Shown: positions 12,553 to 64,000 of the stretch, piece by piece | Numbering within the stretch: the first letter of the stretch is position 1 | Layout: every line of letters starts with the position of its first letter | DNA from: Marispirochaeta sp. | GTDB lineage: Bacteria > Spirochaetota > Spirochaetia > JC444 > Marispirochaetaceae | Reading direction: 5' to 3' | Assembly: GCA_963676835.2 (NCBI GenBank) | Contig: CAXXFF010000002.1 | Coordinates: forward strand, 960,001 to 1,024,000 | Length of the DNA: 64,000 nt | Program-made: the position numbers and the translations under genes | Notes under the pieces: generated by a model | Databases searched by the model: none | Told to the model about the DNA's origin: nothing | Seen by the model: only the letters and a program-made list of their open reading frames with translations

Positions 12553-12567
12553 AAAGGCGGAATCCTG

Positions 12568-13350: not shown

Positions 13351-13418
13351 ACGGATCCATTTTGACGGTGATGTTACCTGTTTTGTGCGGAAATTTTCTA
13401 AAGCGGGGGGGCTGAAGT

Positions 13419-14297
13419 ATGATTCTTACCGGGTTCACTGATGAAGTATCGCCGGATTTTAGCAGGCAGGTTGACGCCTGCCGTGTTCTGTCATGGGACT
13501 GGATTGATCTGAGAACAGTTGGCGACAAGAATATATGCCACCTTGAAACAGGTGAAATGGAAAATCTGCTGGAGGTTTTACGCGATTCAGGCATTCGCAT
13601 CGCATCCTTCGGCAGTCCAGTGGCCAACTGGTCCCGTTCTCTGGATTACCCCTTAAAAGATGAGATCCGGGAGCTTGAGCATGCTGCCGGGCTTATGCGC
13701 ATGGCTGATGTGAAGGGAATCAGGATAATGAGCTACCAAACAGATGCCCCAATACCCCTCCATGATCCTGTTAGAGATAAGGTTTTAAACAGACTGAAGG
13801 AATTGTCCCGGGTTGCCGGGAACGAGGGGATTGTCCTGCTTCATGAAAACTGTGAAACCTGGGGAGGTCAGAGCCTTGAGCACACTCTCTTTCTTCTGGA
13901 TAACATCCATTTACCGGCTTTTCGACTCATTTTTGACACTGGTAATCCTCCTGGCTCACCGGACATCCGGGGAACGGTTCCATTTAAACGACAGAACAGT
14001 CTGGAGTTTCTGAAAGCTGTTTATGAGGCTGTAGATATGGTTCATATAAAGGATGCGCGGTTCAGCAAAGAGGACGGTACTGTCTACACCTGGCCTGGAG
14101 AGGGTGACGCCGGACTGTCCGGGATTTTTTCATGGCTCAAAAAACAGGAATACTCCGGTCCGTTCTCAATAGAGCCCCATCTTGCTGTGGTCTACCATGA
14201 CGAGTCCGTAAAATCGGATGAAAAGAAGCGGTGGGACATGTTTATTGAATATGCCCGTAGAAGCAGCAGGCTGCTTAAGGCTGCCGGCTTTACGTGA
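13419..14297 (+). CDS. Sugar phosphate isomerase/epimerase (xylose-isomerase-like TIM barrel, AP_endonuc_2)
   Basis: GFTDE start; metal ligands in LLHENC, FDTGN, VHIKDA and SIEPH. Confidence 0.85.
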   Translation: MILTGFTDEVSPDFSRQVDACRVLSWDWIDLRTVGDKNICHLETGEMENLLEVLRDSGIRIASFGSPVANWSRSLDYPLKDEIRELEHAAGLMRMADVKGIRIMSYQTDAPIPLHDPVRDKVLNRLKELSRVAGNEGIVLLHENCETWGGQSLEHTLFLLDNIHLPAFRLIFDTGNPPGSPDIRGTVPFKRQNSLEFLKAVYEAVDMVHIKDARFSKEDGTVYTWPGEGDAGLSGIFSWLKKQEYSGPFSIEPHLAVVYHDESVKSDEKKRWDMFIEYARRSSRLLKAAGFT

Positions 14298-49158: not shown

Positions 49159-50250
49159 ATGGGCAAAGTACTGATTGTAGATGATACTGCAGAAAACCGT
49201 GAGATTTTCAAAGGACTCCTCGAAGCGGATCATACTATTTACCTGGCGAAAAACGGTGAGCAGGGAATTCAGCTGGCCCGTAAACGGGAACCGGACCTTA
49301 TTTTGATGGACGTAATGATGCCGGTTATGGACGGGTATGAAGCATGTAAAGTACTGAAAGAAGATGCTTCCACCCGGGATATTCCCCTGATCTTTCTTAC
49401 CTCCATGTCCGAGGAGGAGGATGAGACCAAAGGACTCGGCCTTGGGGCGGTGGACTATGTAACCAAACCTGTCCGACCTTCAATATTGCGGGAGCGGGTC
49501 AAGAATCATCTGGAACTGAAACATTCAAGAGATCTTCTCAAGCGGCAGAACGAGGTGCTGGAAGAGCGGGTACTTGAGCGCACCCGGCAGATGGAAGAGC
49601 TTCAGGATGTAACCATGGTTGCCATGGGCGCCCTTGCGGAATCCCGGGATCCGGAGACGGGCAACCATATCCGGCGGACCCAGCACTATATAAAAGCCCT
49701 GGCCATGCATCTGAAGGATCATCCCGGATTCGGGGGATTTTTTGAACCGGGAATAATCACCTCCCTCTATAAATCTGCTCCTCTACATGATATCGGCAAG
49801 GTCGGTGTTCCCGATGAAATTCTGCTTAAGCCAGGCAAGCTGACTCCTGAGGAATTTGATATTATGAAGATGCATACGGTCCATGGCCGTGATGCAATTG
49901 CGGCGGCCGAAGGTTCCATGATAGTAGCCGATGATTTTCTTATCTTCGCAAAAGAGATTGCCTATATGCATCACGAAAAATGGGATGGATCGGGCTATCC
50001 CCTTGGGCTCAAAGGTGATGATATTCCTATCTCAGCCCGGCTTATGGCCGTTGCCGATGTATATGATGCTCTTATAAGCAAGCGTGTTTACAAGCCGGCC
50101 TTTCCCCACGAAAAAGCTGTTTCCATAATTGCAGAGGGACGGGGCTCCCATTTTGATCCGGACATGACCGATGCCTTTATGGAAATACAGGAAGAGTTCA
50201 AGCAGATTGCCGGTAAGTTTACCGATAGTGAAGGAGCACTAAAGTCATAA
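49159..50250 (+). CDS. Response regulator with HD-GYP c-di-GMP phosphodiesterase domain (RpfG family)
   Basis: REC (LMDVMMP); RDPETGNH, LHDIGK, HHEKWDGSGYP, ADVYDAL. Confidence 0.93.
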   Translation: MGKVLIVDDTAENREIFKGLLEADHTIYLAKNGEQGIQLARKREPDLILMDVMMPVMDGYEACKVLKEDASTRDIPLIFLTSMSEEEDETKGLGLGAVDYVTKPVRPSILRERVKNHLELKHSRDLLKRQNEVLEERVLERTRQMEELQDVTMVAMGALAESRDPETGNHIRRTQHYIKALAMHLKDHPGFGGFFEPGIITSLYKSAPLHDIGKVGVPDEILLKPGKLTPEEFDIMKMHTVHGRDAIAAAEGSMIVADDFLIFAKEIAYMHHEKWDGSGYPLGLKGDDIPISARLMAVADVYDALISKRVYKPAFPHEKAVSIIAEGRGSHFDPDMTDAFMEIQEEFKQIAGKFTDSEGALKS

Positions 50251-50337
50251 GTACTGCATTCAGGAACAATTCCTTTTTCTTGCGTAATATAATTCCTCAT
50301 GAGAAAATAGATGTACTGCTATATATGAGGGTAGTAC

Positions 50338-51711
50338 ATGCATTTTGATCATTCCACCTTGGAGTTTATTATTGAAGGCTCAAACCTTGGAACCTGGGAG
50401 TGGAATGTTCAGACCGGAGAAACCGTCTTTAACCGGCGATGGGCGGAAATTGTCGGATACAGCCTTGAAGAACTTGCCCCGATATCAATAGAAACATGGA
50501 AAGAGCTGACTCATCCCGAAGATCTGGAAAAAGCAGGGGTTAAACTGCAGGCCCATTTCAGGGGTAAAGCAGAGTTCTATGAAATGGAACTCCGGATGCG
50601 TCACAAGGACGGTCACTGGGTGTGGGTTCTCGACCGGGGCAAGGTTTACACCCGAACGGAAGCAGGTGATCCGGAATGGGTCTACGGATCACATCAGGAT
50701 ATTTCCATGCAGAAAGAACTGGAGTTTCGGCTTAAGCAGAGTGAGGAAAAGTTCCAGAAAACCTTTATAACAAATCCTGCAATATCCGGCTTGAGTGATA
50801 TAGAGACCGGCTGCTATGTAGAGGTAAACCCGGCATTTTATGCGCAGCTTGGCTTTGAGGAAGGTGAGGTTATCGGCAGGCGGGCAACAGACCTTCTCAA
50901 ACTGGACCCTGGATTCAGGGAACCTGCATTAGCGCAGATGAAGGAAAATGGTGCTGTGTATAATCTGGAAACTTCCATTACCAGAAAAGACGGTAGTGTC
51001 ATGGACGTTCTTGTTTCAGCCAACATCCTGGAACTGCAGGGCCGGAAATACAATTTTACCACCGCCATCGATATTTCCCGGCAAAAGGAAGCGGAAAGAG
51101 CGCTCCAGAAAAGTCTGGAGGAAAAAGAGCTTTTAATGCGGGAGATGAACCACCGCATCAAGAATAATCTTCTTCTTGTTTCATCGCTCATAAGCCTTGA
51201 ATGTATGAACAGCCAGAAGGACGCGGATCTTGGTAATCTGAAAAACCGCATAGATGCCATTGGCCTTATTCATGAAACCCTTCTGAAGGATAAAGACCTG
51301 AAAACGGTAAACATCCGGACATACATAGAAAATCTGTTGGCAAATATTTTTGAACATTTTGTTCAATATTCTGTCACGGTGAATAATGATGTGGAGCCAA
51401 CGGAGATTTCCACGGATAAAACAATCCCCATCGGCCTTATTGTAAATGAAATTGCCACAAATGCAGTAAAGCATGGTCTTCAGGAAGGAGACCACGCGGT
51501 ATTTAATATAAAAATGGCCAGCCCCGATGAGGATGGTATGGTTGAATTGCGGATATCCGATAACGGCGACCCGCTCCCGGACAATCTCGATTTTGAGCAT
51601 CCCCGGAGTACCGGTCTGCAGCTGATCCAATCATTGGTTATGCAGCTGGGTGGAACCATTCAGCTTACCCGGTCGCCCCATGCGGAATACCGGATATATT
51701 TTTCTCTATAG
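50338..51711 (+). CDS. Soluble PAS-PAS sensor kinase, HisKA_2 type
   Basis: PAS_3 (THPEDL…RHKDGHWVW), second PAS, EMNHRIKNNL, NEIATNAVKH, DNG, STGLQLI. Confidence 0.9.
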   Translation: MHFDHSTLEFIIEGSNLGTWEWNVQTGETVFNRRWAEIVGYSLEELAPISIETWKELTHPEDLEKAGVKLQAHFRGKAEFYEMELRMRHKDGHWVWVLDRGKVYTRTEAGDPEWVYGSHQDISMQKELEFRLKQSEEKFQKTFITNPAISGLSDIETGCYVEVNPAFYAQLGFEEGEVIGRRATDLLKLDPGFREPALAQMKENGAVYNLETSITRKDGSVMDVLVSANILELQGRKYNFTTAIDISRQKEAERALQKSLEEKELLMREMNHRIKNNLLLVSSLISLECMNSQKDADLGNLKNRIDAIGLIHETLLKDKDLKTVNIRTYIENLLANIFEHFVQYSVTVNNDVEPTEISTDKTIPIGLIVNEIATNAVKHGLQEGDHAVFNIKMASPDEDGMVELRISDNGDPLPDNLDFEHPRSTGLQLIQSLVMQLGGTIQLTRSPHAEYRIYFSL

Positions 51712-51744
51712 TGGGTGCTTAAATATTATAAAAACAATCAGCTA

Positions 51745-51796
51745 TAGACATCCTGCTTAATTGACAGTATCTTTTGGTTATACCCCCAGGGGGTAT
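51745..51796 (+). promoter_or_regulatory. Promoter with CsoR/RcnR-type operator
   Basis: TAGACA 51745-51750, 17 bp, TATCTT 51768-51773; perfect palindrome ATACCCCC-A-GGGGGTAT 51780-51796. Confidence 0.75.
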
Positions 51797-51810
51797 GTGA
51801 GAGGTGCAAT

Positions 51811-51948
51811 ATGAAGCGAATTTTTACCACAATCAGATTACGCTGGATCAAATATCTTGAAAAACTTGCCAAAGTGAATGAGGAGCTTTACGGCAATAAG
51901 CGGCTGGATTGCTGTGATATGAACAAAACACGGCACCCGGGTGCCTGA
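51811..51948 (+). CDS. 45-aa LDCC-motif putative metal-binding peptide (absent from the ORF track)
   Basis: SD GAGGT; MKRIFTTIRLRWIKYLEKLAKVNEELYGNKRLDCCDMNKTRHPGA*; lies between the operator and the multicopper oxidase. Confidence 0.8.
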   Translation: MKRIFTTIRLRWIKYLEKLAKVNEELYGNKRLDCCDMNKTRHPGA

Positions 51949-51962
51949 CGCAGTGTATCCCT

Positions 51963-53336
51963 GTGAAAGACACAGTTAGATACGTGAATCTGCTTATAAG
52001 CCTTCTGCTGCTTGCAGGAAGTTTTCTGTGGGCAGATTCCGATTCCACGTCTTTACCTGTTCCCCCTCTGATAAATGGCAGCTCTGTCACCCTGAATATA
52101 CAAAACGGCAGTCTCCAGCTGCCCTTTGGTACCAGTGATACCCTTGGTTTCAATGGAAACTATCTCGGGCCGACAATCAGATTTTCCAGAGGAGATTCCG
52201 CGAATATACAGGTTAATAACGGCCTTAATGAGGATACAACCGTTCACTGGCATGGTCTTCATGTTCCGGCGGAGTACGATGGCGGGCCGCATCAGATTGT
52301 CAAAGCCGGAGAAAGCTGGAATCCGGAATTCCGGATTAACCAGAGCGCTGCAACCCTGTGGTACCATCCGCATCTTATGGGAAAAACGGCGGAGCAGGTA
52401 TACCGGGGCCTGGCAGGAATGTTTATAATTGATGATTCATATTCGGATTCGCTGCCGATTCCCCGGGATTACGGAGTAAACGATATTCCCCTGATACTGC
52501 AGGACCGGAGGATTGACCGGAGCGGAAAGTTCTCCTACCAGCCCTCCCGGCCGGATGTTGTCCATGGGTATACCGGCAACATTATGCTGGTTAACGGTGC
52601 GTATCAGCCTGTTCTCGATACATATCAGGGAACCTACCGTTTCCGGATTCTTAACGGATCAAACTCATCGGTCTACCGTCTGTCATTTTCAGATAAAATT
52701 CAGTTTACCGTAATCGCTTCGGATGGAGGCTTTCTTCCCCGGTCTGTTTCGGCCTCTACTCTGATAATCTCCCCGGGAGAACGCTTTGAGATTCTTGCTG
52801 ATTTCCGGAAAAACGGAGACCGGACACTGAATGTGGAAGTTCTGGGAGGTCCTGCATACACTGCCATGACGGTTCGTACCGGTTCCGCGGCAGGCCGTTA
52901 TTTTCCCCACCCCCGGAGGTTCGACTATGTTCATCCGGATTACTCAGCGCCGGGCCTGGCCATGCGGGAATTCAATATGGAAACCCGGATGATGGGCTCA
53001 TTTACCATAAACGGGCAGCAGATGCGTATGGATAAAATAAACTTCAGCCTTAAATCCGGCAGCGAAGAAATCTGGACTGTACGGAATGTAGGTATGGGCA
53101 TGATGAATATTGTTCACTCCTTTCATGTTCATGATACCCAGTTTACTGTTCTCTCTTATAACGGGCGCAAACCCGATCCCCTGTATCAGGGGCCCAAGGA
53201 TACTATCCTGCTTTCCCCGGGGGACGAAGCTGTTATAGGGGTAAGCTTTCGTGATTACACCGGCGTCTATATGTATCATTGTCATCTTCTGGAGCATGAA
53301 GACTCGGGAATGATGGGCCAGTTTCTGGTGGAGTAG
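51963..53336 (+). CDS. Multicopper oxidase (CueO-like)
   Basis: HWHG, WYHPH, HSFHVH and HCHLLEHEDSGMM copper ligands; signal peptide. Confidence 0.92.
   Translation: MKDTVRYVNLLISLLLLAGSFLWADSDSTSLPVPPLINGSSVTLNIQNGSLQLPFGTSDTLGFNGNYLGPTIRFSRGDSANIQVNNGLNEDTTVHWHGLHVPAEYDGGPHQIVKAGESWNPEFRINQSAATLWYHPHLMGKTAEQVYRGLAGMFIIDDSYSDSLPIPRDYGVNDIPLILQDRRIDRSGKFSYQPSRPDVVHGYTGNIMLVNGAYQPVLDTYQGTYRFRILNGSNSSVYRLSFSDKIQFTVIASDGGFLPRSVSASTLIISPGERFEILADFRKNGDRTLNVEVLGGPAYTAMTVRTGSAAGRYFPHPRRFDYVHPDYSAPGLAMREFNMETRMMGSFTINGQQMRMDKINFSLKSGSEEIWTVRNVGMGMMNIVHSFHVHDTQFTVLSYNGRKPDPLYQGPKDTILLSPGDEAVIGVSFRDYTGVYMYHCHLLEHEDSGMMGQFLVE
53307..53335 (+). repeat. Left 29-bp direct repeat (attL-like), 3' end of the multicopper oxidase gene
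   Basis: GGAATGATGGGCCAGTTTCTGGTGGAGTA, identical to 61095-61123. Confidence 0.92.
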
Positions 53337-53930
53337 CTGGGGTTTGATCGTTAATTGCAGTATGGACTTGTTATTGCAATTGATAATTTGTAGTGAGATG
53401 AAAAACTGAAACCTCCCTAATCGAAGAATAGAATCATTAAGTTCAAATCTCAGAATGTTATCTTCTTTGATTCAATAATGTTATTACAAGAAAACATTGT
53501 TTTTAAGTGATAGTGTTTACATAAAGCTCGCTGTGATAAAAGTTCTCTTCATAAGACTATTTACTTGTTATATATTCAGAGGTCATCTATTGAGTTTGAG
53601 ACTTAGTGGTTTTATGAAAACATGGATCAGTGAATTATCTCCTATAGCCTGATCAATTGCTATTAGTTGTATAATGTGATCACCCGACCAATCCATTTGA
53701 TAAATCATCTTTAGATTAGTTATTCGGACAAGACGCTTTTTGAGATAAAGTTGTAAAATTTGGTATATAGATTTTTAAAAATTTCTTTTTAAGATCAAAA
53801 ATATAGTCATAAGTAACTATAGAGTTTCGCATTTGTGGTTTTAATGATCAATAAAAAGACTGCCAATCGTTCATGCAAAATGTTTAGGATTATGACACTT
53901 AATTAATTTAATCATGGATATAAATTTTAA

Positions 53931-54000
53931 TTGACAATGCCATAGGGTGATGTATAATGAATTTACTTGTACAACAAGTGACTTAGAGGTAGTACAACCA
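53931..54000 (+). promoter_or_regulatory. Promoter and FadR/GntR-type operators of the islet operon
   Basis: TTGACA 53931-53936, 16 bp, TATAAT 53953-53958; inverted repeat ACTTGT-ACA-ACAAGT 53965-53979 and a second site TAGTACAACCA 53990-54000. Confidence 0.75.
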
Positions 54001-54021
54001 AAAAATTTTTGGGAGATATTG

Positions 54022-54717
54022 ATGAAGGGCGAGAAGATAAGAGCAGGAGAACAAATTTTTACGTATTTGAAGGACGAAATACAAAATGGGAAAATATCTC
54101 CTGGTGATAAACTCCCTTCGGAAAATGAAATTGCAGAAAAATATAATGTAAGCAGGAATACAGTTAGAGATGCAATCAATAAGCTTGCGGCTCTTGGCAT
54201 TGTTGAAACATTTCATGGAAAAGGCACTTTTATTAAAGAAATAAAGGTGAATGATGAGATAGATGGTTTAATACCGCATTTTGTTAGAGAATCCAGTGAC
54301 TATTTATCCATGATGAATTTACGGATTGCAATAGAGACTCAGGCAGTTTATCTCGCTGCAGTCAATTCAACTTATCAGGATGTTGACGCAATAGAAGCCA
54401 TCCTTTTAGATCTGGAAAATCATCGTGATGATCTTGAATATTATTCTAATAAGGATATGGATTTTCACAATAAAATTATTGAATGTAGTGGGAATAAATT
54501 GTTTTACTCAATGCTTCAGATTGTAAGGCGTGTTCTAGATGATGTGATGATAGATTTCATTGTTGACTTTGGAAACTATGAAAGCATTTCAGCACACAGA
54601 AAAATATTTGAAGCAATTAAAACAGCCAATCCGGAAAAAGCTAGTAAGCATATGCATCAGCATCTGCAGATAGTTGTTAATCGCTATTTCTATATTTTCA
54701 AGCAGGAAAAGAAATAA
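54022..54717 (+). CDS. GntR/FadR-family transcriptional regulator
   Basis: PGDKLPSENEIAEKYNVSRNTVRDAI…GKGTF; FCD domain DMDFH…SGN…H; start reassigned after GGGAGA. Confidence 0.92.
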   Translation: MKGEKIRAGEQIFTYLKDEIQNGKISPGDKLPSENEIAEKYNVSRNTVRDAINKLAALGIVETFHGKGTFIKEIKVNDEIDGLIPHFVRESSDYLSMMNLRIAIETQAVYLAAVNSTYQDVDAIEAILLDLENHRDDLEYYSNKDMDFHNKIIECSGNKLFYSMLQIVRRVLDDVMIDFIVDFGNYESISAHRKIFEAIKTANPEKASKHMHQHLQIVVNRYFYIFKQEKK

Positions 54718-54741
54718 GAGCTAAAAGGGATGGCGTAGAGA

Positions 54742-56244
54742 ATGAGTATGAATACACTAATTGAATTTCGAAATATAACGAAAAAATTTCCTGGTGTTAC
54801 TGCCTTAAATAATGTCAGCCTATCACTGGTTAGAGGTGAGGTTCATGTTTTACTCGGAGAAAATGGCGCAGGAAAATCTACACTTATGAAAGTTTTATCA
54901 GGTGCTATTACTCCTGATATGGGAGAGGTTCTTCTCGAAGGGCAACCCATTATAAATAATTCTCCTATAAAAGCACAAGATCTTGGTATATCTATGATAT
55001 ATCAAGAGTTAAATCTTATCCCAGAGTTGTCTGTAATGGAAAATATCTTTTTAGGTTCAGAGGAAAAGGGCAAATCCAATTTTCTACTAAATAAAAAAAG
55101 AATGTATAAGAAAACAGTTGAGCATTTGTCAGAGTTGAATTTAAAAGTGGATCCGAGAATTCCGATTAAAGAATTGGGTGCTGGGACACAGCAGATGATA
55201 GAAATAGCAAAAGCCATTTCGAAAGATTCAAAGGTGCTTGTGCTGGATGAGCCGACTAGTTCTCTTACCGATTCAGAAATTGTTGAATTGTTTAGAATTA
55301 TCAAAGTGTTAAAAAATCGCGGTGTCGGGATGTTTTATATTTCACATCGATTAGAAGAGATTTCTGAAGTTGGTGACTCAGTCTCAATTCTACGTGATGG
55401 TGAGAAAATCAGCAGTAATAAAATTTCTGATTTAACAATGGATGAGATGATTGAGCAGATTGCCGGTAGAAAGATTACTAATCTTTTTCCGCATACGAGG
55501 AAGAAGCGCGGCCAATGTGTTCTTGATGTAAAGAATTGTTCAGGCGATGGATTTACTGATATTAATCTTCAAGTATTTTCGGGAGAAATAGTAGGGTTGT
55601 CAGGGCTGGTCGGTGCCGGAAGGACAGAGCTGGCCAGAGCGATTTTTGGAATTGATGATTACTACCATGGTGAAATCCTGGTTGAAGGCAAGAAAGTAGT
55701 AAAGAAAAATACACGGAAAGCTGTGCGACAGGGAATTGGACTTGTTCCGGAAGATCGAAAGGAACAAGGGCTATCCCTACAGAAAAGTATAAGGGAGAAT
55801 TCTGTTGTAAGCGTACTGAAAAAAATTCATCAAAAAGGATTCATCAATGTTGGGAGAGAGAAAAAGATATGTCATGAATATGTAAGAAACCTCTCTATCG
55901 CAACCCCATCAATTGAAAAGCTTACGGGATTTTTAAGTGGAGGTACACAGCAGAAAGTTGTTATCTCAAAATGGCTTATGGCAGGGTTAAAACTTTTCAT
56001 TTTCGATGAACCAACACGAGGAATAGATGTAGGTGCTAAGAGTGAAATCTACAGCATTATGGATGGACTTGTTGAACAAGGTGCTGCAATACTAATGATA
56101 TCTTCAGATCTACCGGAAATACTCGGGATGAGTGACAGAGTGTATGTCATGTCCTCTGGGAACATTAAAGGAACTATGGATATTGAGGACGCTGATCAGA
56201 CAAAAATACTACAAATTGCATACTCACATAAAGGAGGTAATTAA
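54742..56244 (+). CDS. Sugar ABC transporter ATP-binding protein (RbsA/MglA type)
   Basis: GENGAGKSTL, LDEPTSSL, ISHRL, PEDRK, LSGGTQQK, DEPTRGIDVGAK. Confidence 0.95.
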   Translation: MSMNTLIEFRNITKKFPGVTALNNVSLSLVRGEVHVLLGENGAGKSTLMKVLSGAITPDMGEVLLEGQPIINNSPIKAQDLGISMIYQELNLIPELSVMENIFLGSEEKGKSNFLLNKKRMYKKTVEHLSELNLKVDPRIPIKELGAGTQQMIEIAKAISKDSKVLVLDEPTSSLTDSEIVELFRIIKVLKNRGVGMFYISHRLEEISEVGDSVSILRDGEKISSNKISDLTMDEMIEQIAGRKITNLFPHTRKKRGQCVLDVKNCSGDGFTDINLQVFSGEIVGLSGLVGAGRTELARAIFGIDDYYHGEILVEGKKVVKKNTRKAVRQGIGLVPEDRKEQGLSLQKSIRENSVVSVLKKIHQKGFINVGREKKICHEYVRNLSIATPSIEKLTGFLSGGTQQKVVISKWLMAGLKLFIFDEPTRGIDVGAKSEIYSIMDGLVEQGAAILMISSDLPEILGMSDRVYVMSSGNIKGTMDIEDADQTKILQIAYSHKGGN

Positions 56245-57282
56245 ATGTCAGACTTTAAGATTCAGAACAAGCTGATAGTTCATGTCTTACGAATTAATCG
56301 AAGAATGCCAAATTCGATTTATATATTTATTGTTGTGTTTCTTGGGTTATCAATGAGCGTCAACAATTTTTTCTCAGCAACTAATTTAGCCACCTTGTTG
56401 GAGCAGACCTGTATTCTATCATTACTAAGTGTTGCAATGTCACTTGCAATCATTTCTGCTGGAATAGATTTATCTGTTGGTGGGATTGTGTCATTTGCCG
56501 GAATTATTATGGCTTTGATGGTAAGCAGTGGGATCAATACCGTATTCGCTGTGATTGTGGGAATTTTTGCAGCACTAATCTTTGGTCTGCTGAATGGTTT
56601 GATAGTGGTTAAAATGAAAGTCGTACCTTTTATCGCTACTTTTGGAATGATGGGTGTTGCACAGGGAATAGCAAATCTTCTTTCTAATAAAAGGGCAATC
56701 TATTTGAATGAAGACAACGGGAATATCATAATACATTTTCTGCAGAACAAGTTGATCGAGATCAATATTGGAGATGGCGCCTTTAGTATCAATATGATTG
56801 TCATCATTACAATTTTATCAATAGCGTTGATCATATTTATTTACAAAAAGACTCAACTGGGTTTGTACCTCTATGCAATAGGAGGGAACAGAGAAGCAGC
56901 AAAACTTTCTCATATACGAGTAGATATGTGGAATATCGGCGTTTATGTAATTACCGGATTAATAGCTGGGATAGCCGCATTACTTATGGTGCTTCGTTTA
57001 AACAGTGCTCAACCAACTGCAGGTGATGGCTTGGAATTTCAAGCAGTTGTGGCAGCTGTTCTTGGAGGTAATGATCTTAAAGGAGGAAAAGGCAGTATTG
57101 CTGGTGCTATACTTGGAGCATTTTCTGTATATGCGTTGAAGAACGGGTTAGCATTGGCTGGTGTTAACAGTTTCCTGATCATGATAATACTCGGTGCTGT
57201 TCTTGTTATTGGAATGGTCTTAAATACACTTGCATCAAATCACAATTTTTCTAAGAAATATGTAACAAGGGGAATGGAATGA
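56245..57282 (+). CDS. Sugar ABC transporter permease (RbsC type)
   Basis: GIDLSVG, PFIATFG, YAIGGNREAA, AAVLGG. Confidence 0.92.
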   Translation: MSDFKIQNKLIVHVLRINRRMPNSIYIFIVVFLGLSMSVNNFFSATNLATLLEQTCILSLLSVAMSLAIISAGIDLSVGGIVSFAGIIMALMVSSGINTVFAVIVGIFAALIFGLLNGLIVVKMKVVPFIATFGMMGVAQGIANLLSNKRAIYLNEDNGNIIIHFLQNKLIEINIGDGAFSINMIVIITILSIALIIFIYKKTQLGLYLYAIGGNREAAKLSHIRVDMWNIGVYVITGLIAGIAALLMVLRLNSAQPTAGDGLEFQAVVAAVLGGNDLKGGKGSIAGAILGAFSVYALKNGLALAGVNSFLIMIILGAVLVIGMVLNTLASNHNFSKKYVTRGME

Positions 57283-58286
57283 AATCCTCAAAGATCCGAC
57301 TTGGAATTAAGTCTGCCTTATATAACTTTTCAACCTTATGGATATTACTTGTAATACTTATATTCTTTTCGGTTACAGGCCGGGGATTTGTTAGTGGAGG
57401 TAATATTTCAAATATTATCAATCAGGCTTCGTTTCTTTGTATTATAGGTGTTGCTCAATTAATTGTGATTCTGGCTGGTGGAGTTGATCTTTCTATTGGC
57501 TCAATTATGGCACTGTCTACAGTCTTATGTGGACCGATGTTTCTGGCGAAAAGCAATACATTTTTTCTTATTCCTGTTCTTCTTACATTACTATTTGGAG
57601 GTCTCGTTGGACTCATAAATGGCCTAATGGTTACCAAGTTAAAAATACCTGCATTTCTTGCAACCTTCGCAGTTATGTATGCCGCACGCGGTGCTGCATG
57701 GTTGTATATAGGTAAAGGTGTCTACTATGGAATAAACAAATCAATAAGATACTGGGCAACCGGATGTCTTTTTAATATTGGTAGTTTTCGGGTCACCGTA
57801 CCTATACTGGTTGTTCTACTCTTTCTGGTGATTATGTCTTTCTTTCTTAAGAAAACGATTCTTGGACGGGAGATATATTTTACTGGTGCAAATAAAACTG
57901 CAGCATGTTTTGCTGGTATCCCTGCACATAATATTATTATCTGGTCACATGTATTGAGTGGGTTGATTTCCAGTTTTGCAGGAATAATGTATGTTGCAAG
58001 AATAAATGCTGCCGATGCAAATCTTGGTGTGACATATCACTTTGATGCAATATCGGTTGCCTTGATTGGTGGAGCAGTTTTCTCTGGTGGTTCAGGCAGT
58101 GTCTGGGGTGTTGCCGGAGGAGCTCTGATAATTTCAATCATTCAAAGTGGAATGAATAACTTGAGAGTCCCTACCGAACTTCAGACTGCCTTCCTTGGTT
58201 TGGTTATTATTGTGGCTGTATTTCTTAATCAATACTTACAAACAAAGCAAATGTCTCTGGAAGATAAGCAGATAGAGAAAGCATGA
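57279..58286 (+). CDS. Sugar ABC transporter permease (RbsC type), second subunit
   Basis: GGVDLSIG, PAFLATFA, GREIYFTGAN, IGGAVFSGGSG. Confidence 0.92.
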   Translation: MKSSKIRLGIKSALYNFSTLWILLVILIFFSVTGRGFVSGGNISNIINQASFLCIIGVAQLIVILAGGVDLSIGSIMALSTVLCGPMFLAKSNTFFLIPVLLTLLFGGLVGLINGLMVTKLKIPAFLATFAVMYAARGAAWLYIGKGVYYGINKSIRYWATGCLFNIGSFRVTVPILVVLLFLVIMSFFLKKTILGREIYFTGANKTAACFAGIPAHNIIIWSHVLSGLISSFAGIMYVARINAADANLGVTYHFDAISVALIGGAVFSGGSGSVWGVAGGALIISIIQSGMNNLRVPTELQTAFLGLVIIVAVFLNQYLQTKQMSLEDKQIEKA

Positions 58287-58335
58287 ATATTTTAACTCCT
58301 CTTCCTTAAGGGAGAGATAAAATTCAGGAGGAAAT

Positions 58336-59289
58336 ATGAAATCACGTGTATTGGTCGTTATGGGAGTGGTGTGTCTGTTACTTGGCTTGCTTGGCTGTAA
58401 TGGAGGAGTGGAAAGCGGCAGTGTAGTATCGCAGGCACAGGAAAGTGCAAAGAACTACAAAATCGCATTTATTGTTAAGAGTCTTCAGTCCCCATTTTTT
58501 ATCAATATGATGGAAGCTGCAGAACAGGCAGATGAGGATTATCCGGAAATCACTGTGGATGTAAGTGCACCTCAGACACCTTTCAATATTGATGAACAAA
58601 TTCAACTGGTAGAACAAGCAATAACAAACAAAGTTGATGCTATTGTTATTACACCTTGTGATTCGGTTGGTATAGGACCTGCAATCAAGAAGGCAAATGA
58701 AGCCGGAATCATTGTAATTACGCCTAATACGAAATCAGCGACTGGGAAAATTACTGCCTTTGTTGGTGTGGAAAACTATAATGTTGGATATGACCTTGGT
58801 GTTGCCTTATGTGAAAAACTAGATGGAGAAGGAAATGTACTTCTTATGGAGGGTAAAGCTGGGAATTCCACCTCAGAAGAGCGTGCCAAGGGGTTTAAAG
58901 CAGCAGTTCAAACATACTCCAGAATAACTTTGCTTGATAGCCAACCGGCAGACTGGGAACGGGCAAAAGGTATGACTGTTATGGAAAACTGGCTGCAGCG
59001 TTATAAAGAGATCGATGGTATTTTGACTCTTACTAAAGATATGGGTCTAGGTGCAATTGAAGCGATAAAGGCTGCCGGACGTGACCAGGAAATTGTTTCG
59101 GTTACTTTTGACGTAGATGATGATGTGCTGGATGCTATAAAAAATGGAGATCTTTATGCTTCTGGTAATCAGAATGAGAAAAGTCAGGCTTATGTTGCTG
59201 TTACAAGTGCATTATTTACTTTGAAAGGGTATAAAGTTGACGATTCCCAGATTCTTCCCATTTCAATTGTGACAGCAGAAGATATTTAA
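58336..59289 (+). CDS. Sugar ABC transporter substrate-binding lipoprotein (RbsB type)
   Basis: Lipobox LLGC; KSLQSPFF, VDAIVITP, ERAKGF, ADWER. Confidence 0.9.
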   Translation: MKSRVLVVMGVVCLLLGLLGCNGGVESGSVVSQAQESAKNYKIAFIVKSLQSPFFINMMEAAEQADEDYPEITVDVSAPQTPFNIDEQIQLVEQAITNKVDAIVITPCDSVGIGPAIKKANEAGIIVITPNTKSATGKITAFVGVENYNVGYDLGVALCEKLDGEGNVLLMEGKAGNSTSEERAKGFKAAVQTYSRITLLDSQPADWERAKGMTVMENWLQRYKEIDGILTLTKDMGLGAIEAIKAAGRDQEIVSVTFDVDDDVLDAIKNGDLYASGNQNEKSQAYVAVTSALFTLKGYKVDDSQILPISIVTAEDI

Positions 59290-59301
59290 ACATGGTGTTG
59301 A

Positions 59302-59337
59302 TCTGCGGGAATAGTCTCAAAAAGATATTCCTGCAGA
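59302..59337 (+). terminator. Stem-loop after the binding-protein gene
   Basis: TCTGCGGGAATA…TATTCCTGCAGA inverted repeat. Confidence 0.55.
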
Positions 59338-59367
59338 CACAAAATACTTCAATAGGAGATACAAAAA

Positions 59368-60483
59368 ATGAGCTTACTGGATAAATGGATTACAACCGAA
59401 GAACCATCAATATTTTTCGAGAACACAGAAGTCGGACAGTTGAAGAAAAAGATATGGGATGCTTCTGAGTGTGAAATAGAAGATATCTTGCAGGAATACG
59501 ATATCCCTTCTGACCCCGAGCTGGGAAAACCCAATACATATATACAAACGACAAACCGGAACCTGGCAATTGAGAAGAGGCGGAAGAACGATATAGTATT
59601 TATTCCAGTCGGATGTTCTGAAAATCATGGTATCCATGCCAATACTGGTCTAGATACCTTTATGGTGACACAGATAGTGGAAGGTTTGCGGCGTTATACA
59701 GCAAAAAAAGGGCATGAGTGTAATATAGCATTTACACCATTGAATTACGGGGGGCATCCACATCACCATGTTGGCATGCCTGGTACTATTATTATGCCTC
59801 ATGAAGTTGTTGTTGAAACTCTAATCTATACAATGCTTGGTTTATGGAATGATGGATACCGAAAGATTTTACTGATAAATAATCATGGTCATCTGTGGAT
59901 GCTGGAGTCAGCGATTCAGGAGTTCTGTAAAAGATATCAGCTTCCCGGTATTTTCAGGGTAATAGACTGGCATCGTGCAATCCGGGAATTCTTTGTACCG
60001 GTTGATCGTGGGGACAGTTTTGAAACAACCTTTATTCATGCTGATGAAATTGAAACATCCATGGCGTTATTGTTGTTTAAAGGAATGATCGATATGAAAG
60101 TTGTTCAGGATGCATGGCCAGTAAATCTGCTTCCGGGTGGTCACTTGGATGTGTCTGTTGACACATATCGAAGACCGTGCAGGTGGTCGGAGGGCGAAGG
60201 TCATTCTGCAATAGAAATTAAGGGAACTCCTGAAGGAGTGGTCGGTGCACCCAGTAAAGCAGATCCTAAAAAGGCAAAACGTCCGATGGCTGCAATACTT
60301 AAATATCTTACTCTTTTACACGATCAAATTCTTGAGGCATATCCGGCAGGAGAAGTTCCGTCTGTTGAGATGACAACGTTGAGAACTGAAGAGGAAATGG
60401 AACCTTATCTGCGTGAACCTCTTTCGGATGGCTGGAAGTCTGTATATCAGTTGCCAAAAATTGGCGCATTTGAAAAACTTTAA
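59368..60483 (+). CDS. iolN: Creatininase-family hydrolase, probably 3-dehydro-scyllo-inosose hydrolase-like
   Basis: IPVGCSENHGIH…D, HHVGMPGT, INNHGH and HADEIETS creatininase metal motifs; the long N-terminal extension resembles IolN-type proteins as I recall them. Confidence 0.6.
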   Translation: MSLLDKWITTEEPSIFFENTEVGQLKKKIWDASECEIEDILQEYDIPSDPELGKPNTYIQTTNRNLAIEKRRKNDIVFIPVGCSENHGIHANTGLDTFMVTQIVEGLRRYTAKKGHECNIAFTPLNYGGHPHHHVGMPGTIIMPHEVVVETLIYTMLGLWNDGYRKILLINNHGHLWMLESAIQEFCKRYQLPGIFRVIDWHRAIREFFVPVDRGDSFETTFIHADEIETSMALLLFKGMIDMKVVQDAWPVNLLPGGHLDVSVDTYRRPCRWSEGEGHSAIEIKGTPEGVVGAPSKADPKKAKRPMAAILKYLTLLHDQILEAYPAGEVPSVEMTTLRTEEEMEPYLREPLSDGWKSVYQLPKIGAFEKL

Positions 60484-60524
60484 CACGGTGTCAGTAGTAG
60501 TGCGAATTCTGGAGGATTATTTCT

Positions 60525-60956
60525 ATGTTTGAAAAACTTGAGCACACTGCATTAAGTGTTGAGGATATTGAAAGATCACTGAAGTTTTACTGTGAGCTTC
60601 TTGGGTTTACGGTTCTGAAGAGATTGGAGCCAGATCCTGCGCTTCCTCAAGGTAAAGTATTAGATTTACAAGAAGATGCTGGAGCAAAGATTGCACATCT
60701 TGAATTGGGTGGTGTAATGCTTGAACTTTTTCAATTCGTTAAACCTCTTGGTAAGCCGCTTCCAAAAGAGTTTACTCAAGCAGATCATGGGTTTACACAC
60801 ATTGCATTGAAAACTCAGGATACTAAGGCTGCTTACCAGTACCTGGTTGATAGAGACGTGGAGTTTTATAGTGAGCCAGTAGAGTTTAGGCCTGGGGTTT
60901 GGATATGTTTTTTCCGTGGGCCTGATGGAGAAACTATAGAATTACGGCAGACATAA
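60525..60956 (+). CDS. VOC (glyoxalase/methylmalonyl-CoA epimerase-like) protein
   Basis: HTALSVEDIERSLKFY…LGF, LELFQF, HIAL, FFRGPDGETIEL (H/E/H/E metal set). Confidence 0.88.
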   Translation: MFEKLEHTALSVEDIERSLKFYCELLGFTVLKRLEPDPALPQGKVLDLQEDAGAKIAHLELGGVMLELFQFVKPLGKPLPKEFTQADHGFTHIALKTQDTKAAYQYLVDRDVEFYSEPVEFRPGVWICFFRGPDGETIELRQT

Positions 60957-60987
60957 ATTATACTCTTATTAGTCACCTCATAATCAA

Positions 60988-61020
60988 AAAAGGATAGAAT
61001 CAAAAATAGTCTATCCTTTT
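60988..61020. terminator. Bidirectional intrinsic terminator at the end of the islet operon
   Basis: AAAAGGATAGA…TCTATCCTTTT inverted repeat with A/T tails. Confidence 0.6.
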
Positions 61021-61094
61021 ATTTATGTACGAATACTGACGATTTTTATTCATAATTTGAGATTGGTCTTAAACGATAATCTAAGATGTTCTCC

Positions 61095-61123
61095 GGAATG
61101 ATGGGCCAGTTTCTGGTGGAGTA
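61095..61123 (+). repeat. Right 29-bp direct repeat (attR-like), displaced copy of the oxidase 3' end
   Basis: Identical to 53307-53335; with its flanks it still reads SGMMGQFLVE*. Confidence 0.92.
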
Positions 61124-61297
61124 AGTGGAGTATAAAAATAGATCCCGCTACCCTTTGTACTTGTTTTATGTACCGCCGAAAAAATAGGAACAGCCTATAT
61201 TTCTATTGGATGTGGGCGTAATGTAAGGTTTACCCAGATATTCTCCGGGAGTAAAAAAAATTGCAGTTGCGGGCCCTGTTTGTGCTACTATTCAAAT

Positions 61298-62398
61298 ATG
61301 CAGTCGGATATGCAGGAGAGCCGGAACAGCCTTGATCTCCACTTGATTGATAACGCTACGGGAAAGCTTCCCGAGGTTATCGGCGAGATCGATGATCTGG
61401 TGAAGATTGCCGCTAACGGGGATCTTCCCATGCAGGACAGGATCGAAGCCTATGAGGATATTATCGCCTCCGAGGTCGGGGATACCGCCATGCTCCGGGC
61501 CAGGAACATAGAACGTCAGTTTAACTTCCGTCAGCTGTTTCTCAAGTTTGAGGGATCAAATCCATCGGGTTCGCACAAGGACCGGATAGCCTTTGCCCAG
61601 GTGAACGATGCCCTCCGCCGGGGGTATGAAAAGATTGTATTTGCCACCTGCGGCAACTACGGTGTGGCCCTTGCTTTTGCTGCATCCCTCGCGGGGATAG
61701 CCTGCAAAATCTATATCCCAACAGCCTATCATCCCCAGCGGATCCCTGAGATGAAGACCTGGGATGCAGAGATTGTCCGGGCAGGTAATGACTACGAAGA
61801 GGCGGTGTACCTCTCCAGCAGGGAAGCCTTTGACGGGGATTATTACGATGCCAACCCGGGCGGGCAGAATACAGATCTTCAGCTGAAGGCATACGGGGAA
61901 ATCGCCTATGAAATTTATGATGAACTGAGGGATGCTCCCGCGGCGGTGGCAGTTCCGGTCTCCAACGGTACGACCCTGACAGGTATCTACCGGGGATTTG
62001 TGACTCTTTACCGGCGGGGAAAAACTTCCCGGATACCGAAAATTATCGCCGGGTCCACCTCCAACAAGAATCCTATAATTGTCTCATTCAAAAAAAACCT
62101 GGACTCCTGTGAAGATCTTAATCCGGCAAAAATTAAGGAGTCTCCCATAAACGAACCTCTTATAAACTGGCATTCCATCGACGGCACTATGGCTCTGACC
62201 TCTATACGCAACACAGGTGGCTGGGCATCGGATGCGCCGGATAAAAAGATGGCGGAATATGCGGGCTATATAAAAAAACATGAAGGCCTGTCGGTTATTC
62301 CCGCCTCCACCGCAGGGCTGATTGCCCTTTTGGAGTGGAACGCAAAAGAGGCGCTGCCGGGGGACCGCTATGTAGCAGTCCTTACGGGAAGGAGATAA
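61298..62398 (+). CDS. PLP-dependent enzyme, threonine synthase/fold-type II family
   Basis: LKFEGSNPSGSHKDR, ATCGNYG, VPVSNGTT, PAST, VAVLTG; start at 61298 or 61310. Confidence 0.85.
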   Translation: MQSDMQESRNSLDLHLIDNATGKLPEVIGEIDDLVKIAANGDLPMQDRIEAYEDIIASEVGDTAMLRARNIERQFNFRQLFLKFEGSNPSGSHKDRIAFAQVNDALRRGYEKIVFATCGNYGVALAFAASLAGIACKIYIPTAYHPQRIPEMKTWDAEIVRAGNDYEEAVYLSSREAFDGDYYDANPGGQNTDLQLKAYGEIAYEIYDELRDAPAAVAVPVSNGTTLTGIYRGFVTLYRRGKTSRIPKIIAGSTSNKNPIIVSFKKNLDSCEDLNPAKIKESPINEPLINWHSIDGTMALTSIRNTGGWASDAPDKKMAEYAGYIKKHEGLSVIPASTAGLIALLEWNAKEALPGDRYVAVLTGRR

Positions 62399-62400
62399 GC

Positions 62401-63471
62401 ATGAAACCCGAAGGAAACGCGGTTGTCTACTGCGAAGGGGCATTTACAACAACCTATGGAAAAACCGCCCATGGACTGGTGCGCTTTACCGAGCGCTACC
62501 GGGTGGTGGCTGTAATAGACAGTACCTGCGCCGGCAGAGATGCCGGTGAGGTCCTGGAGCATAGGCCGAAAGATATTCCCCTGATTGAATCTCTTGAAGC
62601 TGCCTTTGATCTTGCCGCGGAGCGGGGGCTTCCCCTGACCCATTTTGTAATCGGTCTTGCTACCGACGGGGGATATGTAACGGATGAAATCCGTGCCGCA
62701 GCCCGGGAAGCTCTGGAAGCAGGCTTGAATGTCGATTCGGGACTGCACGACTATCTTGGGGAAGATGAGGCCTTAATGACACTGGCTGCATCGAAAAAAG
62801 TACAAATCCGGGATATCCGCAAAGCCCCGGCAGATGCAAATCATATGTTTTCGGGTCGCATAAGTGAGGTAGGTGCTCTGCGGGTTGCCCTGCTGGGCAC
62901 CGATTCGGCTGTCGGCAAGCGCACCACCGCCTGGAAAATGGCCCATGGGCTGCAGCAGAAAGGCTATTCTGCGGAGTTTATCGGAACCGGGCAGACTGCC
63001 TGGCTTCAGGGCGCTGAGTTCAGCATTGTGCTGGACAGCCTGATAAACGACTATGTCAGCGGTGAGCTTGAGAATGTGGTTCTGCGGGCCTGGGATGCAA
63101 AGCAGATGGACTTTGCCATTATTGAAGGACAGGGAAGTCTTATGAACCCCGGCTATCCCGGCGGGTTTGAGATACTGGCTGCCTGCAGACCGGACTGCAT
63201 CATTATGCAGCATGCTCCTGCGCGACTTGAGTACGACGGCTTTGCCGGATATCCGGTTGATTCAATTGAAGATCAGATATTTCTGGCGGAGTTCCTGTCA
63301 AAAAAGAAGGTAGTTGCCGTTACGGTTAATGATGAGAATATCTCTGTTGAAAATATTGATCAGGAATGTGAAAAGCTCAGGGATCGAACCGGCCTTCCGG
63401 TAGTTGCTCCTCTGCATCATAGCCTTGATCCTGTTATTTCTTGTCTGGAAGAACTCCGTCGGGCCAAATGA
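62401..63471 (+). CDS. DUF1611 family protein (DgcN-like P-loop protein)
   Basis: GKTAHGLVR, SGLH, GTDSAVGKRTT, GTGQT, IEGQGSL. Confidence 0.85.
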   Translation: MKPEGNAVVYCEGAFTTTYGKTAHGLVRFTERYRVVAVIDSTCAGRDAGEVLEHRPKDIPLIESLEAAFDLAAERGLPLTHFVIGLATDGGYVTDEIRAAAREALEAGLNVDSGLHDYLGEDEALMTLAASKKVQIRDIRKAPADANHMFSGRISEVGALRVALLGTDSAVGKRTTAWKMAHGLQQKGYSAEFIGTGQTAWLQGAEFSIVLDSLINDYVSGELENVVLRAWDAKQMDFAIIEGQGSLMNPGYPGGFEILAACRPDCIIMQHAPARLEYDGFAGYPVDSIEDQIFLAEFLSKKKVVAVTVNDENISVENIDQECEKLRDRTGLPVVAPLHHSLDPVISCLEELRRAK

Positions 63472-64000
63472 AAATAACCTCTGTTGAACTTATCCGGCTC
63501 TCTATGGAGATGGCGGAGCCGTATCAGGTGGCCTACAACACCTTTACCAGGGCGGAGAATATTCTTATTCGGATTACCGCCGGAGGGATAGACGGCTGGG
63601 GCTGTATTGCCCCCGACCCTGATGTTACCGGTGAAGATCTTTTGGAAATTCACGGGACAGCAGAAACAATTCTGCCCGGACTTTTGAAGGGTGAAGATGC
63701 CATGCGCCGGGCTTTTATTCTGAACAGACTGAGAAAGCAGACTCCCGGCCTGTTCAGCCTTCATTCTGGAGTTGATATCGCCCTCTGGGATCTGCTGGGA
63801 AAAAAGGCGGGACTGCCGGTTTGGAAGATTCTCGGCGGTTACCGGGAAAAGATAAAAACCAGTGTAACCATCGGTATCTGCGGAGTGCCGGATACGATCA
63901 AACAGGCGGATGCGTTTCTTCGGGAGGGCTGGCAGATACTCAAAATTAAAGGCGGATTGAATGTGGAAACTGATATTATCCGCCTTCATGAATTGCGGGG
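63468..64000 (+). CDS. Dipeptide epimerase (L-Ala-D/L-Glu epimerase/DgcA-like, enolase superfamily), runs off the window end
   Basis: ATGA overlap with DUF1611; MKITSVE…EPYQVAY…GWG…VTGE…GVDIALWDLLGKKAGLPVWKILGG…TSVTIGI…LKIKGG. Confidence 0.88.
   Translation, partial: MKITSVELIRLSMEMAEPYQVAYNTFTRAENILIRITAGGIDGWGCIAPDPDVTGEDLLEIHGTAETILPGLLKGEDAMRRAFILNRLRKQTPGLFSLHSGVDIALWDLLGKKAGLPVWKILGGYREKIKTSVTIGICGVPDTIKQADAFLREGWQILKIKGGLNVETDIIRLHELR

What the first reader, a model, noticed from the sequence alone, without database searches (positions are those of the whole stretch)
53303..61130. Integrase-less 7.8-kb islet using the 3' end of a multicopper oxidase gene as its attachment site
Seen: the last codons of the oxidase (CTCG-GGAATGATGGGCCAGTTTCTGGTGGAGTA-G) recur 7788 bp later (CTCC-same 29 bp-A). 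Both flanking differences are synonymous (TCG/TCC Ser; TAG/TAA stop), so both copies read SGMMGQFLVE*. The DNA between them is visibly more AT-rich and carries only a catabolic operon, with no integrase, transposase or relaxase. Known: integrative elements duplicate and restore the 3' end of their target gene, usually a tRNA or housekeeping gene. Inference: this is a cargo-only islet, mobilised in trans or left after loss of its recombinase, with an unusual target. The roughly 600-bp non-coding left arm (53337-53930) could hold arm sites or an oriT.
Basis: partly seen in the sequence, partly recalled or inferred. Interest (0 to 1): 0.85.

Follow-up and report, generated by a model that had tools for sequence, protein, structure and literature searches.

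The report
Sugar islet behind duplicated oxidase tail
A 7.8-kb block of foreign-looking sugar-uptake genes sits between the end of a copper-oxidase gene and a second copy of that gene's last codons; about nine other genes in this genome show the same scar, so it likely arrived by ordinary recombination with a relative's DNA rather than through a dedicated integration site.

Summary
In detail: an exact 29-bp direct repeat (37 of 41 bases with flanks), unique in the genome, brackets a 7.8-kb AT-rich, recombinase-free operon (GntR, sugar ABC transporter, IolN-family hydrolase, glyoxalase-fold protein). One unitig spans it without differences, so it is no assembly artefact. The closest relative keeps both flanks but holds a different gene here, so there is no clean empty site. 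The 'attachment site' reading is weak. No other oxidase end examined has an orphan tail copy, no viral contig carries the motif, and the arms show no recombinase remnant or homologue. Instead this is one of about ten gene-tail duplications in this genome, at unrelated genes, 24-185 bp long, without shared arms. Their two copies differ mostly at silent positions (38 synonymous, 13 non-synonymous codons), so they are two alleles; two sister sites have clean empty alleles in a relative. Best reading: insertion with long target duplication through homology to a relative's gene tail, a described kind of event, here with catabolic rather than restriction cargo. This scan has noted similar islets on other DNA (51 findings). 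Real, but close to ordinary.

The parts
51963..53336 (+). Multicopper oxidase gene (457 aa, three Cu-oxidase domains); target gene, intact
   Evidence: 82% identical to the orthologue in G002
53303..53343 (+). Left repeat copy: last 10 codons, stop and 7 bases beyond (exact core 53307-53335)
53337..53930 (.). AT-rich non-coding left arm; no homologue, recombinase remnant or unusual folding found
   Evidence: z 0.61; one 37-bp match in 300 other genomes
53931..53958 (+). Sigma-70-type promoter match, 12 of 12, 16-nt spacer
   Evidence: consensus match only
53967..53977 (.). Palindrome just downstream of the promoter; likely operator of the GntR/FCD regulator (motif class recalled)
   Evidence: sequence; function inferred
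54022..54717 (+). GntR/FCD (FadR-type) regulator
54742..56244 (+). Sugar ABC transporter ATPase (ribose/arabinose type; below every equivalog cut-off)
56245..57282 (+). ABC permease
57279..58286 (+). ABC permease
58336..59289 (+). Sugar-binding protein (Peripla_BP_4)
59368..60483 (+). Creatininase-family hydrolase over the NCBIfam cut-off for IolN (3-dehydro-scyllo-inosose hydrolase, 305 vs 245 bits)
   Evidence: best database relatives 79% identical
60525..60956 (+). Glyoxalase/VOC-fold protein
60988..61020 (+). Perfect 11-bp inverted repeat after the last cargo gene; possible terminator (the terminator scan did not call it)
61091..61131 (+). Right, orphan repeat copy (exact core 61095-61123); no open frame upstream; likely the displaced native gene tail
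   Evidence: geometry inferred from two sister sites
61236..61259 (+). Short stretch resembling the two borders of the right repeat joined without the oxidase tail; unexplained, possibly a second junction relic
   Evidence: 1 of 1000 shuffles reach the score; found after the fact
61280..62398 (+). PLP-dependent (PALP) gene, right backbone flank
   Evidence: 92% identical in G002, 1.6 kb after the oxidase there

Best explanation
The islet is a recombinase-free cargo block flanked by two versions of the oxidase's last codons, and it likely entered by homology-driven recombination with DNA from a related strain that carried the oxidase tail joined to the cargo, not by a dedicated integrase. Shown: the repeat, the foreign composition, the absence of mobility genes, the variable content of this site in a relative, and about nine sister scars at other genes, whose copies differ mostly at silent sites and two of which have clean empty alleles. 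Inferred: incoming DNA paired with the resident gene tail, either as a circle crossing over once in the shared bases or as a linear piece anchored in the gene with an illegitimate joint at its other end. The incoming tail now ends the gene, and the native tail was pushed 7.8 kb downstream. Gene ends are favoured because only there the gene survives without a new promoter. Once made, the block would spread between strains by recombination in the flanks and could be lost at a low rate through the 29-bp repeat. The cargo is predicted to import a sugar or cyclitol and open an inosose ring under GntR control; the pathway looks incomplete, since no IolM over the family cut-off was found in this genome.
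For: Among 3618 ORFs, 17 rows have a unique orphan copy of the gene END downstream, against 1 for gene middles and 1 for gene starts; 10 sites remain after 7 rows were dropped (3 reciprocal rows, 4 paralogue/IS/terminator-like). Targets are unrelated (purL-like, tyrS, larB-like, epimerase, NMT1 binding protein, NUDIX, UDG, oxidase), repeats 24-185 bp. Tail-versus-orphan differences at 9 sites: 38 synonymous, 13 non-synonymous codons, 47 of 63 base changes at third positions; 0 of 2000 random simulations reach this share (mean 0.24). With the tenth, paralogue-like site: 39 vs 31, still 0 of 2000. At this site both in-frame differences are silent. G002 has clean single-copy empty sites at 2 of 7 sister sites tested, and its DNA after the repeat matches the RIGHT copy's flank. 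The oxidase cargo shares no arm with the others. Furuta 2010 (PMC2853133) describes recombinase-free insertions with long, variable duplications, often spanning start or stop sites. In marine metagenome X2, islet pieces differ at 29 of 1900 bases and flank pieces at 74 of 1061, a hint of recent transfer between lineages.
Against: No same-species empty site was found for this locus; G002 holds a MASE3 histidine-kinase gene here and its post-stop DNA matches neither copy. Here the core is short and exact (29 bp) with no longer diverged gene fragment before the right copy, which is also what a site-specific attachment site looks like, and is near or below the length given for RecA-dependent recombination (about 30 bp in E. 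coli, PMC2884548). This cargo is about five times larger than the sister cargos and of a different kind. Five of 7 sister sites tested gave no clean empty allele. Homology-facilitated illegitimate recombination is reported to be rare (PMC5361080). No X2 contig bridges a junction, so the islet and flank pieces may come from different organisms, and 31 pieces were not listed.
Confidence: 0.63

Rival explanations
1. A decayed or parasitic site-specific element (CIME-like, or H47-island-like): an integrase once used the oxidase tail as attB and was later deleted, or a host recombinase acts in trans.
For: Short exact core at a stop codon with silent flanking differences; 600-bp non-coding arm; the genome has 8 tyrosine recombinases; the H47 island excises without RecA and without its own integrase (PMC3191183); single CIMEs are thought common (PMC7563491); a joined-border relic 152 bp downstream could mark repeated use of the site.
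Against: 0 of 27 other genomes' matching oxidase ends have a downstream tail copy (18 with at least 8 kb of downstream DNA); only this genome among 401 has two motif matches; 0 viral contigs match; the only recombinases near such an end are trio-type clusters without a tail copy (L063) and a fragment 9 kb upstream (L057); the core matches at most 19 of 29 near any of the 8 resident recombinases; no serine resolvase match in the genome; no remnant in the arms.
Confidence: 0.22
2. A whole second oxidase gene came in with the cargo ahead of the native gene, and the native gene was later deleted down to its last 41 bases.
For: Three other genomes hold only a 60-90-bp 3' relic of this oxidase and no full gene by this query (G741, G742, G488); at the NMT1 sister site the orphan has a mid-gene piece next to the tail.
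Against: The oxidase lies in conserved synteny with G002 and has backbone GC3; it needs two events; the clean empty sites at sister loci fit one step.
Confidence: 0.12
3. Chance repeat or assembly error.
For: None found.
Against: Chance expectation 1.6e-7; one unitig spans both copies with 0 differences; the composition shift coincides with the repeats.
Confidence: 0.01

Closest known systems
Insertion with long (variable) target duplication (Furuta, Abe, Kobayashi 2010, PMC2853133; 12 passages and section 15 read)
   Same: No mobile-element genes, under 20 kb, repeat unique in the genome, repeat spans a stop codon and leaves the gene intact, GC shift, many unrelated targets in one genome.
   Different: Cargo is catabolic, not restriction-modification; exact core is 29 bp (41 bp at 90%), at their 30-bp threshold; no same-species empty site seen; the two copies look like two alleles rather than a fresh copy.
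Homology-facilitated illegitimate recombination and sequential displacement (PMC5361080 and PMC2884548; passages read)
   Same: A conserved gene part anchors foreign DNA, and the resident 3' part is shifted downstream as an orphan.
   Different: Described for effector-immunity and Rhs loci and in competent model species; here a housekeeping-type gene tail and a metabolic operon. Competence of this organism is untested (a ComEC match exists).
CIME, cis-mobilisable element (PMC7563491; passages read)
   Same: Cargo between direct repeats at a gene 3' end, with no recombination or transfer genes.
   Different: A CIME derives from an ICE or IME that uses the same site; none was found for the oxidase tail.
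H47 genomic island of E. coli (PMC3191183; abstract and Discussion read)
   Same: Small island, imperfect direct repeats, no integrase of its own.
   Different: H47 has long repeats with four crossover segments, widespread empty sites and demonstrated RecA-independent excision; none of this is shown here.
iOriT islands (10.64898/2026.01.13.699239; abstract and passages read)
   Same: Small cargo island without relaxase.
   Different: 92% of their att-delimited islands have an integrase within 2 kb and all carry an oriT; here no integrase, and no oriT evidence.

Membership tests
[quoted passage not shown] | Restriction and modification genes in the insert | tested here: not met
   Only regulator, ABC transporter, IolN and glyoxalase-fold genes
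[quoted passage not shown] | Insert under 20 kb and free of mobile-element genes | tested here: met
   7.8 kb
[quoted passage not shown] | Duplication longer than 30 bp, unique in the genome | tested here: inconclusive
   29 bp exact, 37 of 41 with flanks; unique
[quoted passage not shown] | Empty site with one copy in a related genome | tested here: inconclusive
   G002 holds another gene here; clean empty sites at 2 of 7 sister sites
CIME | att sites retained, recombination and transfer genes absent | tested here: inconclusive
   Repeats present and genes absent, but nothing shows that the repeats are att sites
CIME | Derived from an ICE/IME with the same target | tested here: not met
   None found in those searched: 27 genome loci, 401 class genomes, viral contigs; a sample, not proof of absence
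H47-type parasitic island | RecA-independent excision and integration by host functions | not testable with these tools
   No joint skipping the islet in contigs of X1, but contigs drop rare variants
iOriT / integrative mobilisable element | Integrase at the att site | tested here: not met
iOriT / integrative mobilisable element | Origin of transfer | tested here: inconclusive
   No oriT library on hand; the left arm has one weak unannotated plasmid match (E 4e-3) and folds no better than shuffles
IolN (NF041098) | Score over the curated cut-off | tested here: met
   305 vs 245 bits
IolM-IolN inositol route | IolM (NF041097) partner in the genome | tested here: not met
   Best 235 vs 450 bits in G000; over the cut-off only in G003, beside its IolN homologue

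The most novel reading that the evidence does not exclude
This lineage has a routine, recombinase-free way of adding cargo behind stop codons: small circles or fragments that carry a piece of any gene's tail and use it as their own landing site, with a host recombinase acting in trans. The oxidase islet would be its largest passenger and is now moving between Marispirochaeta species, as the metagenome pieces (98.5% in the islet, 93% in the flanks) suggest, with the joined-border relic marking an earlier visit.
Probability: 0.15. Interest if true: 0.62.

Novelty: new variant of a known kind. Interest (0 to 1): 0.3.

Why it matters
As a single locus it matters little: an accessory sugar operon behind a gene. 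Its use is as one of about ten scars in one genome that show how cargo is gained without integrases, and the silent-site signature gives a cheap test that tells allele-swapping recombination from true target duplication. If a host recombinase were shown to move such islets through any gene tail, it would bear on how the many genomic islands without mobility genes travel.

Tried and rejected
Empty site: none in 5 genus genomes; only G002 links oxidase and PALP gene. Excised form: no joint in contigs of 4 runs; no RNA holder listed. Other carriers of the cargo: GntR scan of metagenome contigs gave 4 loci at 29-41%; IolN search of 401 phylum genomes gave at best 71%; protein database at best 79%. 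Phage records: 5 matches, all partial matches at 82% to the oxidase motif, not followed up. Rfam: 4 matches, all far below gathering score. Terminal inverted repeats of a transposon: none at the islet ends among those listed. Orphan oxidase tails in G741, G742 and G488 were checked as possible attR sites and rejected: no full gene was found in those genomes with this query. Two matches 55 kb apart on one Alkalibacterium contig are two full genes. Recombinase trios beside the oxidase in L063 have no tail copy. A shared multicopy repeat occurs in 2 of 10 cargos (tyrS, NUDIX), not in this one. The larB-like site in G002 holds about 30 kb of other genes with no tail copy and no recombinase hit. 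A paper search for IolN returned nothing relevant. Cluster membership of the islet proteins stayed unchecked. Two of the nine sister sites (C1:341463, C2:1526668) were not tested for empty alleles.
Full report
Observation. The repeat is as described: 29 identical bases at 53307-53335 and 61095-61123, spacing 7788, and 37 of 41 identical with flanks. The two in-frame differences are silent (Ser codon, stop codon). No third copy exists in the 4.43-Mb genome at up to 6 mismatches, and chance gives about 1.6e-7 such pairs within 10 kb. The insert has GC 0.376, in the lowest 1.0% of 4400 genome windows, and all 7 cargo ORFs have GC3 in the lowest 1.3-4.1% of 3433 ORFs. Run X1, probably the source of this DNA and so not independent of it, spans 50000-64000 in one unitig without differences and shows no joint that skips the islet.

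Anatomy. After the oxidase stop come about 600 non-coding bases, a 12-of-12 sigma-70 match, a palindrome of the FadR/GntR operator type (class recalled), a GntR/FCD regulator, a four-gene sugar ABC transporter, a creatininase-family protein over the NCBIfam cut-off for IolN, and a glyoxalase-fold protein. G000 has no IolM over its cut-off, whereas G003 has IolM next to a 65% identical IolN in a different operon; so the islet carries part of an inositol-type route or acts on another substrate. The order of that route is recalled; the library search found no paper on it. The genome has 8 tyrosine-recombinase matches, none within 400 kb of the islet, and no serine-resolvase match. The arms hit none of 3912 genome ORFs, fold no better than shuffles, and match 1 of 300 other class genomes over only 37 bases.

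Relatives. Five genus genomes have the oxidase. A named record among the pattern hits, titled Marispirochaeta sp., encodes an oxidase 82% identical, which gives the likely genus. G002 is collinear over 46.7-53.3 kb and 61.3-64 kb but has a MASE3 histidine-kinase gene between oxidase and PALP gene and no repeat. The site is therefore variable, but this is not a clean empty allele. None of the five carries the islet. In metagenome X2, six listed islet pieces differ at 29 of 1900 bases and four listed flank pieces at 74 of 1061. No contig bridges a junction and 31 pieces were not listed, so this only hints at recent transfer.

Is the oxidase tail an att site? A degenerate pattern for this gene end found 27 loci in 185,579 species genomes. 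None has a downstream orphan copy; 18 of the 27 had at least 8 kb of downstream DNA. Of 401 class genomes, 10 match and only G000 matches twice. Viral contigs gave 0 matches. A profile of the 8 resident recombinases hit 2 of the 27 loci: trio-type clusters in L063 without a tail copy, and a fragment 9 kb upstream in L057. The core matches at most 19 of 29 bases near any resident recombinase. Paper searches (listings only; 20 of 196, 4 of 4 and 4 of 4 papers shown) showed no report of a multicopper oxidase as an integration target; the library lacks most subscription papers, and supplements were not read.

The genome-wide pattern. A scan for unique two-copy repeats and a controlled search show that this is not a lone case. 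Of 3618 ORFs, 17 rows have an orphan copy of the gene end downstream, against 1 for middles and 1 for starts; upstream orphans were 5 (ends), 1 (middles) and 7 (starts). I dropped 7 of the 17 (3 reciprocal rows of convergent neighbours, 4 paralogue, IS or terminator-like), leaving 10 sites. Their targets are unrelated, their repeats run from 24 to 185 bp, and their cargos are mostly 0.7-1.6 kb: AAA/DUF4143, PIN, HEPN with nucleotidyltransferase, Fic. At 9 sites the two copies differ by 38 synonymous and 13 non-synonymous codons; random placement gives a share of 0.24 and never reached the observed 0.75 in 2000 runs. The tenth site (1 synonymous, 18 non-synonymous) looks like a paralogue; with it the count is 39 to 31, also never reached. 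A fresh duplicate that decays would not do this, so the copies are two working alleles brought together by recombination. Of 7 sister sites tested in 5 genomes, G002 has a clean single-copy empty site at 2 (epimerase, UDG), and there its downstream DNA matches the right copy's flank. At 2 (tyrS, NUDIX) it lacks the cargo and a neighbour, at 1 (larB-like) it holds other genes, and 2 are unresolved. The oxidase islet shares no arm with the other cargos.

Mechanism. Shown: repeat, foreign cargo, no mobility gene, variable site, sister scars with allelic copies and two empty alleles. Inferred: DNA from a relative, carrying the oxidase tail joined to the cargo, recombined into the resident tail, by one crossover of a circle or by an anchored linear piece with an illegitimate far joint; the incoming tail completes the gene and the native tail is displaced. 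I put this at 0.63. A decayed or trans-mobilised site-specific element remains at 0.22, because at this site the core is short and exact and no longer gene fragment precedes the right copy. Arrival of a whole second oxidase with later decay of the native gene gets 0.12, since three genomes show bare oxidase tails. One oddity is unexplained: 61236-61259 resembles the two borders of the right repeat joined without the tail (1 of 1000 shuffles and 1 of 600 genome segments reach the score; found after the fact).

Known kinds. It works like insertion with long target duplication (PMC2853133, passages and section 15), which was defined for restriction genes, lacks mobile-element genes and often spans start or stop sites. 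It is not a member in the strict sense, since the cargo has no restriction genes. The displacement geometry is that proposed for homology-facilitated illegitimate recombination (PMC5361080, PMC2884548, passages). It fails the CIME test of a related ICE or IME at the same target (PMC7563491, passages) and the integrase test of iOriT islands. The H47 island shows that a host-supplied recombinase is possible and how to test it. Earlier notes of this scan list 51 similar findings in other genomes; they served as leads only.

Verdict. A real, horizontally gained islet with a duplicated gene tail; a new variant of a known kind, interest 0.3. The unusual target is likely incidental.

Noticed in passing
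G000:C2:115398, C2:473256, C2:669006, C2:902185, C2:1527000, C3:695182, C3:897054, C4:219938: Further integrase-free gene-tail duplications around 0.7-1.6-kb cargos (AAA/DUF4143, PIN, HEPN plus nucleotidyltransferase, Fic).
   Followed up: yes
G000:C1:449369-460788, C4:404934-412627, C3:843330-856168: Islets with type I restriction-modification-like ORFs (judged from the translations, no family scan) between direct repeats of 42 bp (tRNA-Thr 3' part), 22 bp and 21 bp, with no PF00589 match inside: closer to the published RM insertions than the oxidase islet.
   Followed up: no
G000:C1:136389-147727 and C3:166775-175018: Ordinary integrase-bearing islands at tRNA-Val and tRNA-Leu.
   Followed up: no
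window 51781-51795: Perfect-armed palindrome with C and G runs upstream of a short ORF and the oxidase; looks like a CsoR-type copper operator (motif class recalled).
   Followed up: no
window 61236-61259: Stretch resembling the two borders of the right repeat joined without the oxidase tail.
   Followed up: partly
G741:C43:54800-54862, G742:C169:3973-4059, G488:C139:4404-4472: Genomes with only a 60-90-bp 3' relic of this oxidase and no full gene by this query.
   Followed up: partly
L063:1421-4641 and 10765-13929: Copper-ATPase-like and oxidase genes of Sporosalibacterium faouarense lie between two different trios of tyrosine recombinases; the first trio has 88-bp inverted repeats.
   Followed up: partly
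L093:1975-2128 and L092:3330-3396: A roughly 150-bp repeat with about 20 copies in G000 and many in the genus sits in the NUDIX and tyrS cargos.
   Followed up: no
L115:7480-18647 (G003): Fuller inositol-type operon with IolM, IolN and a sugar ABC transporter.
   Followed up: partly
G000:C1:554757 and C4:404934: Duplications at gene starts rather than ends, around 9.5-kb and 7.7-kb inserts.
   Followed up: no
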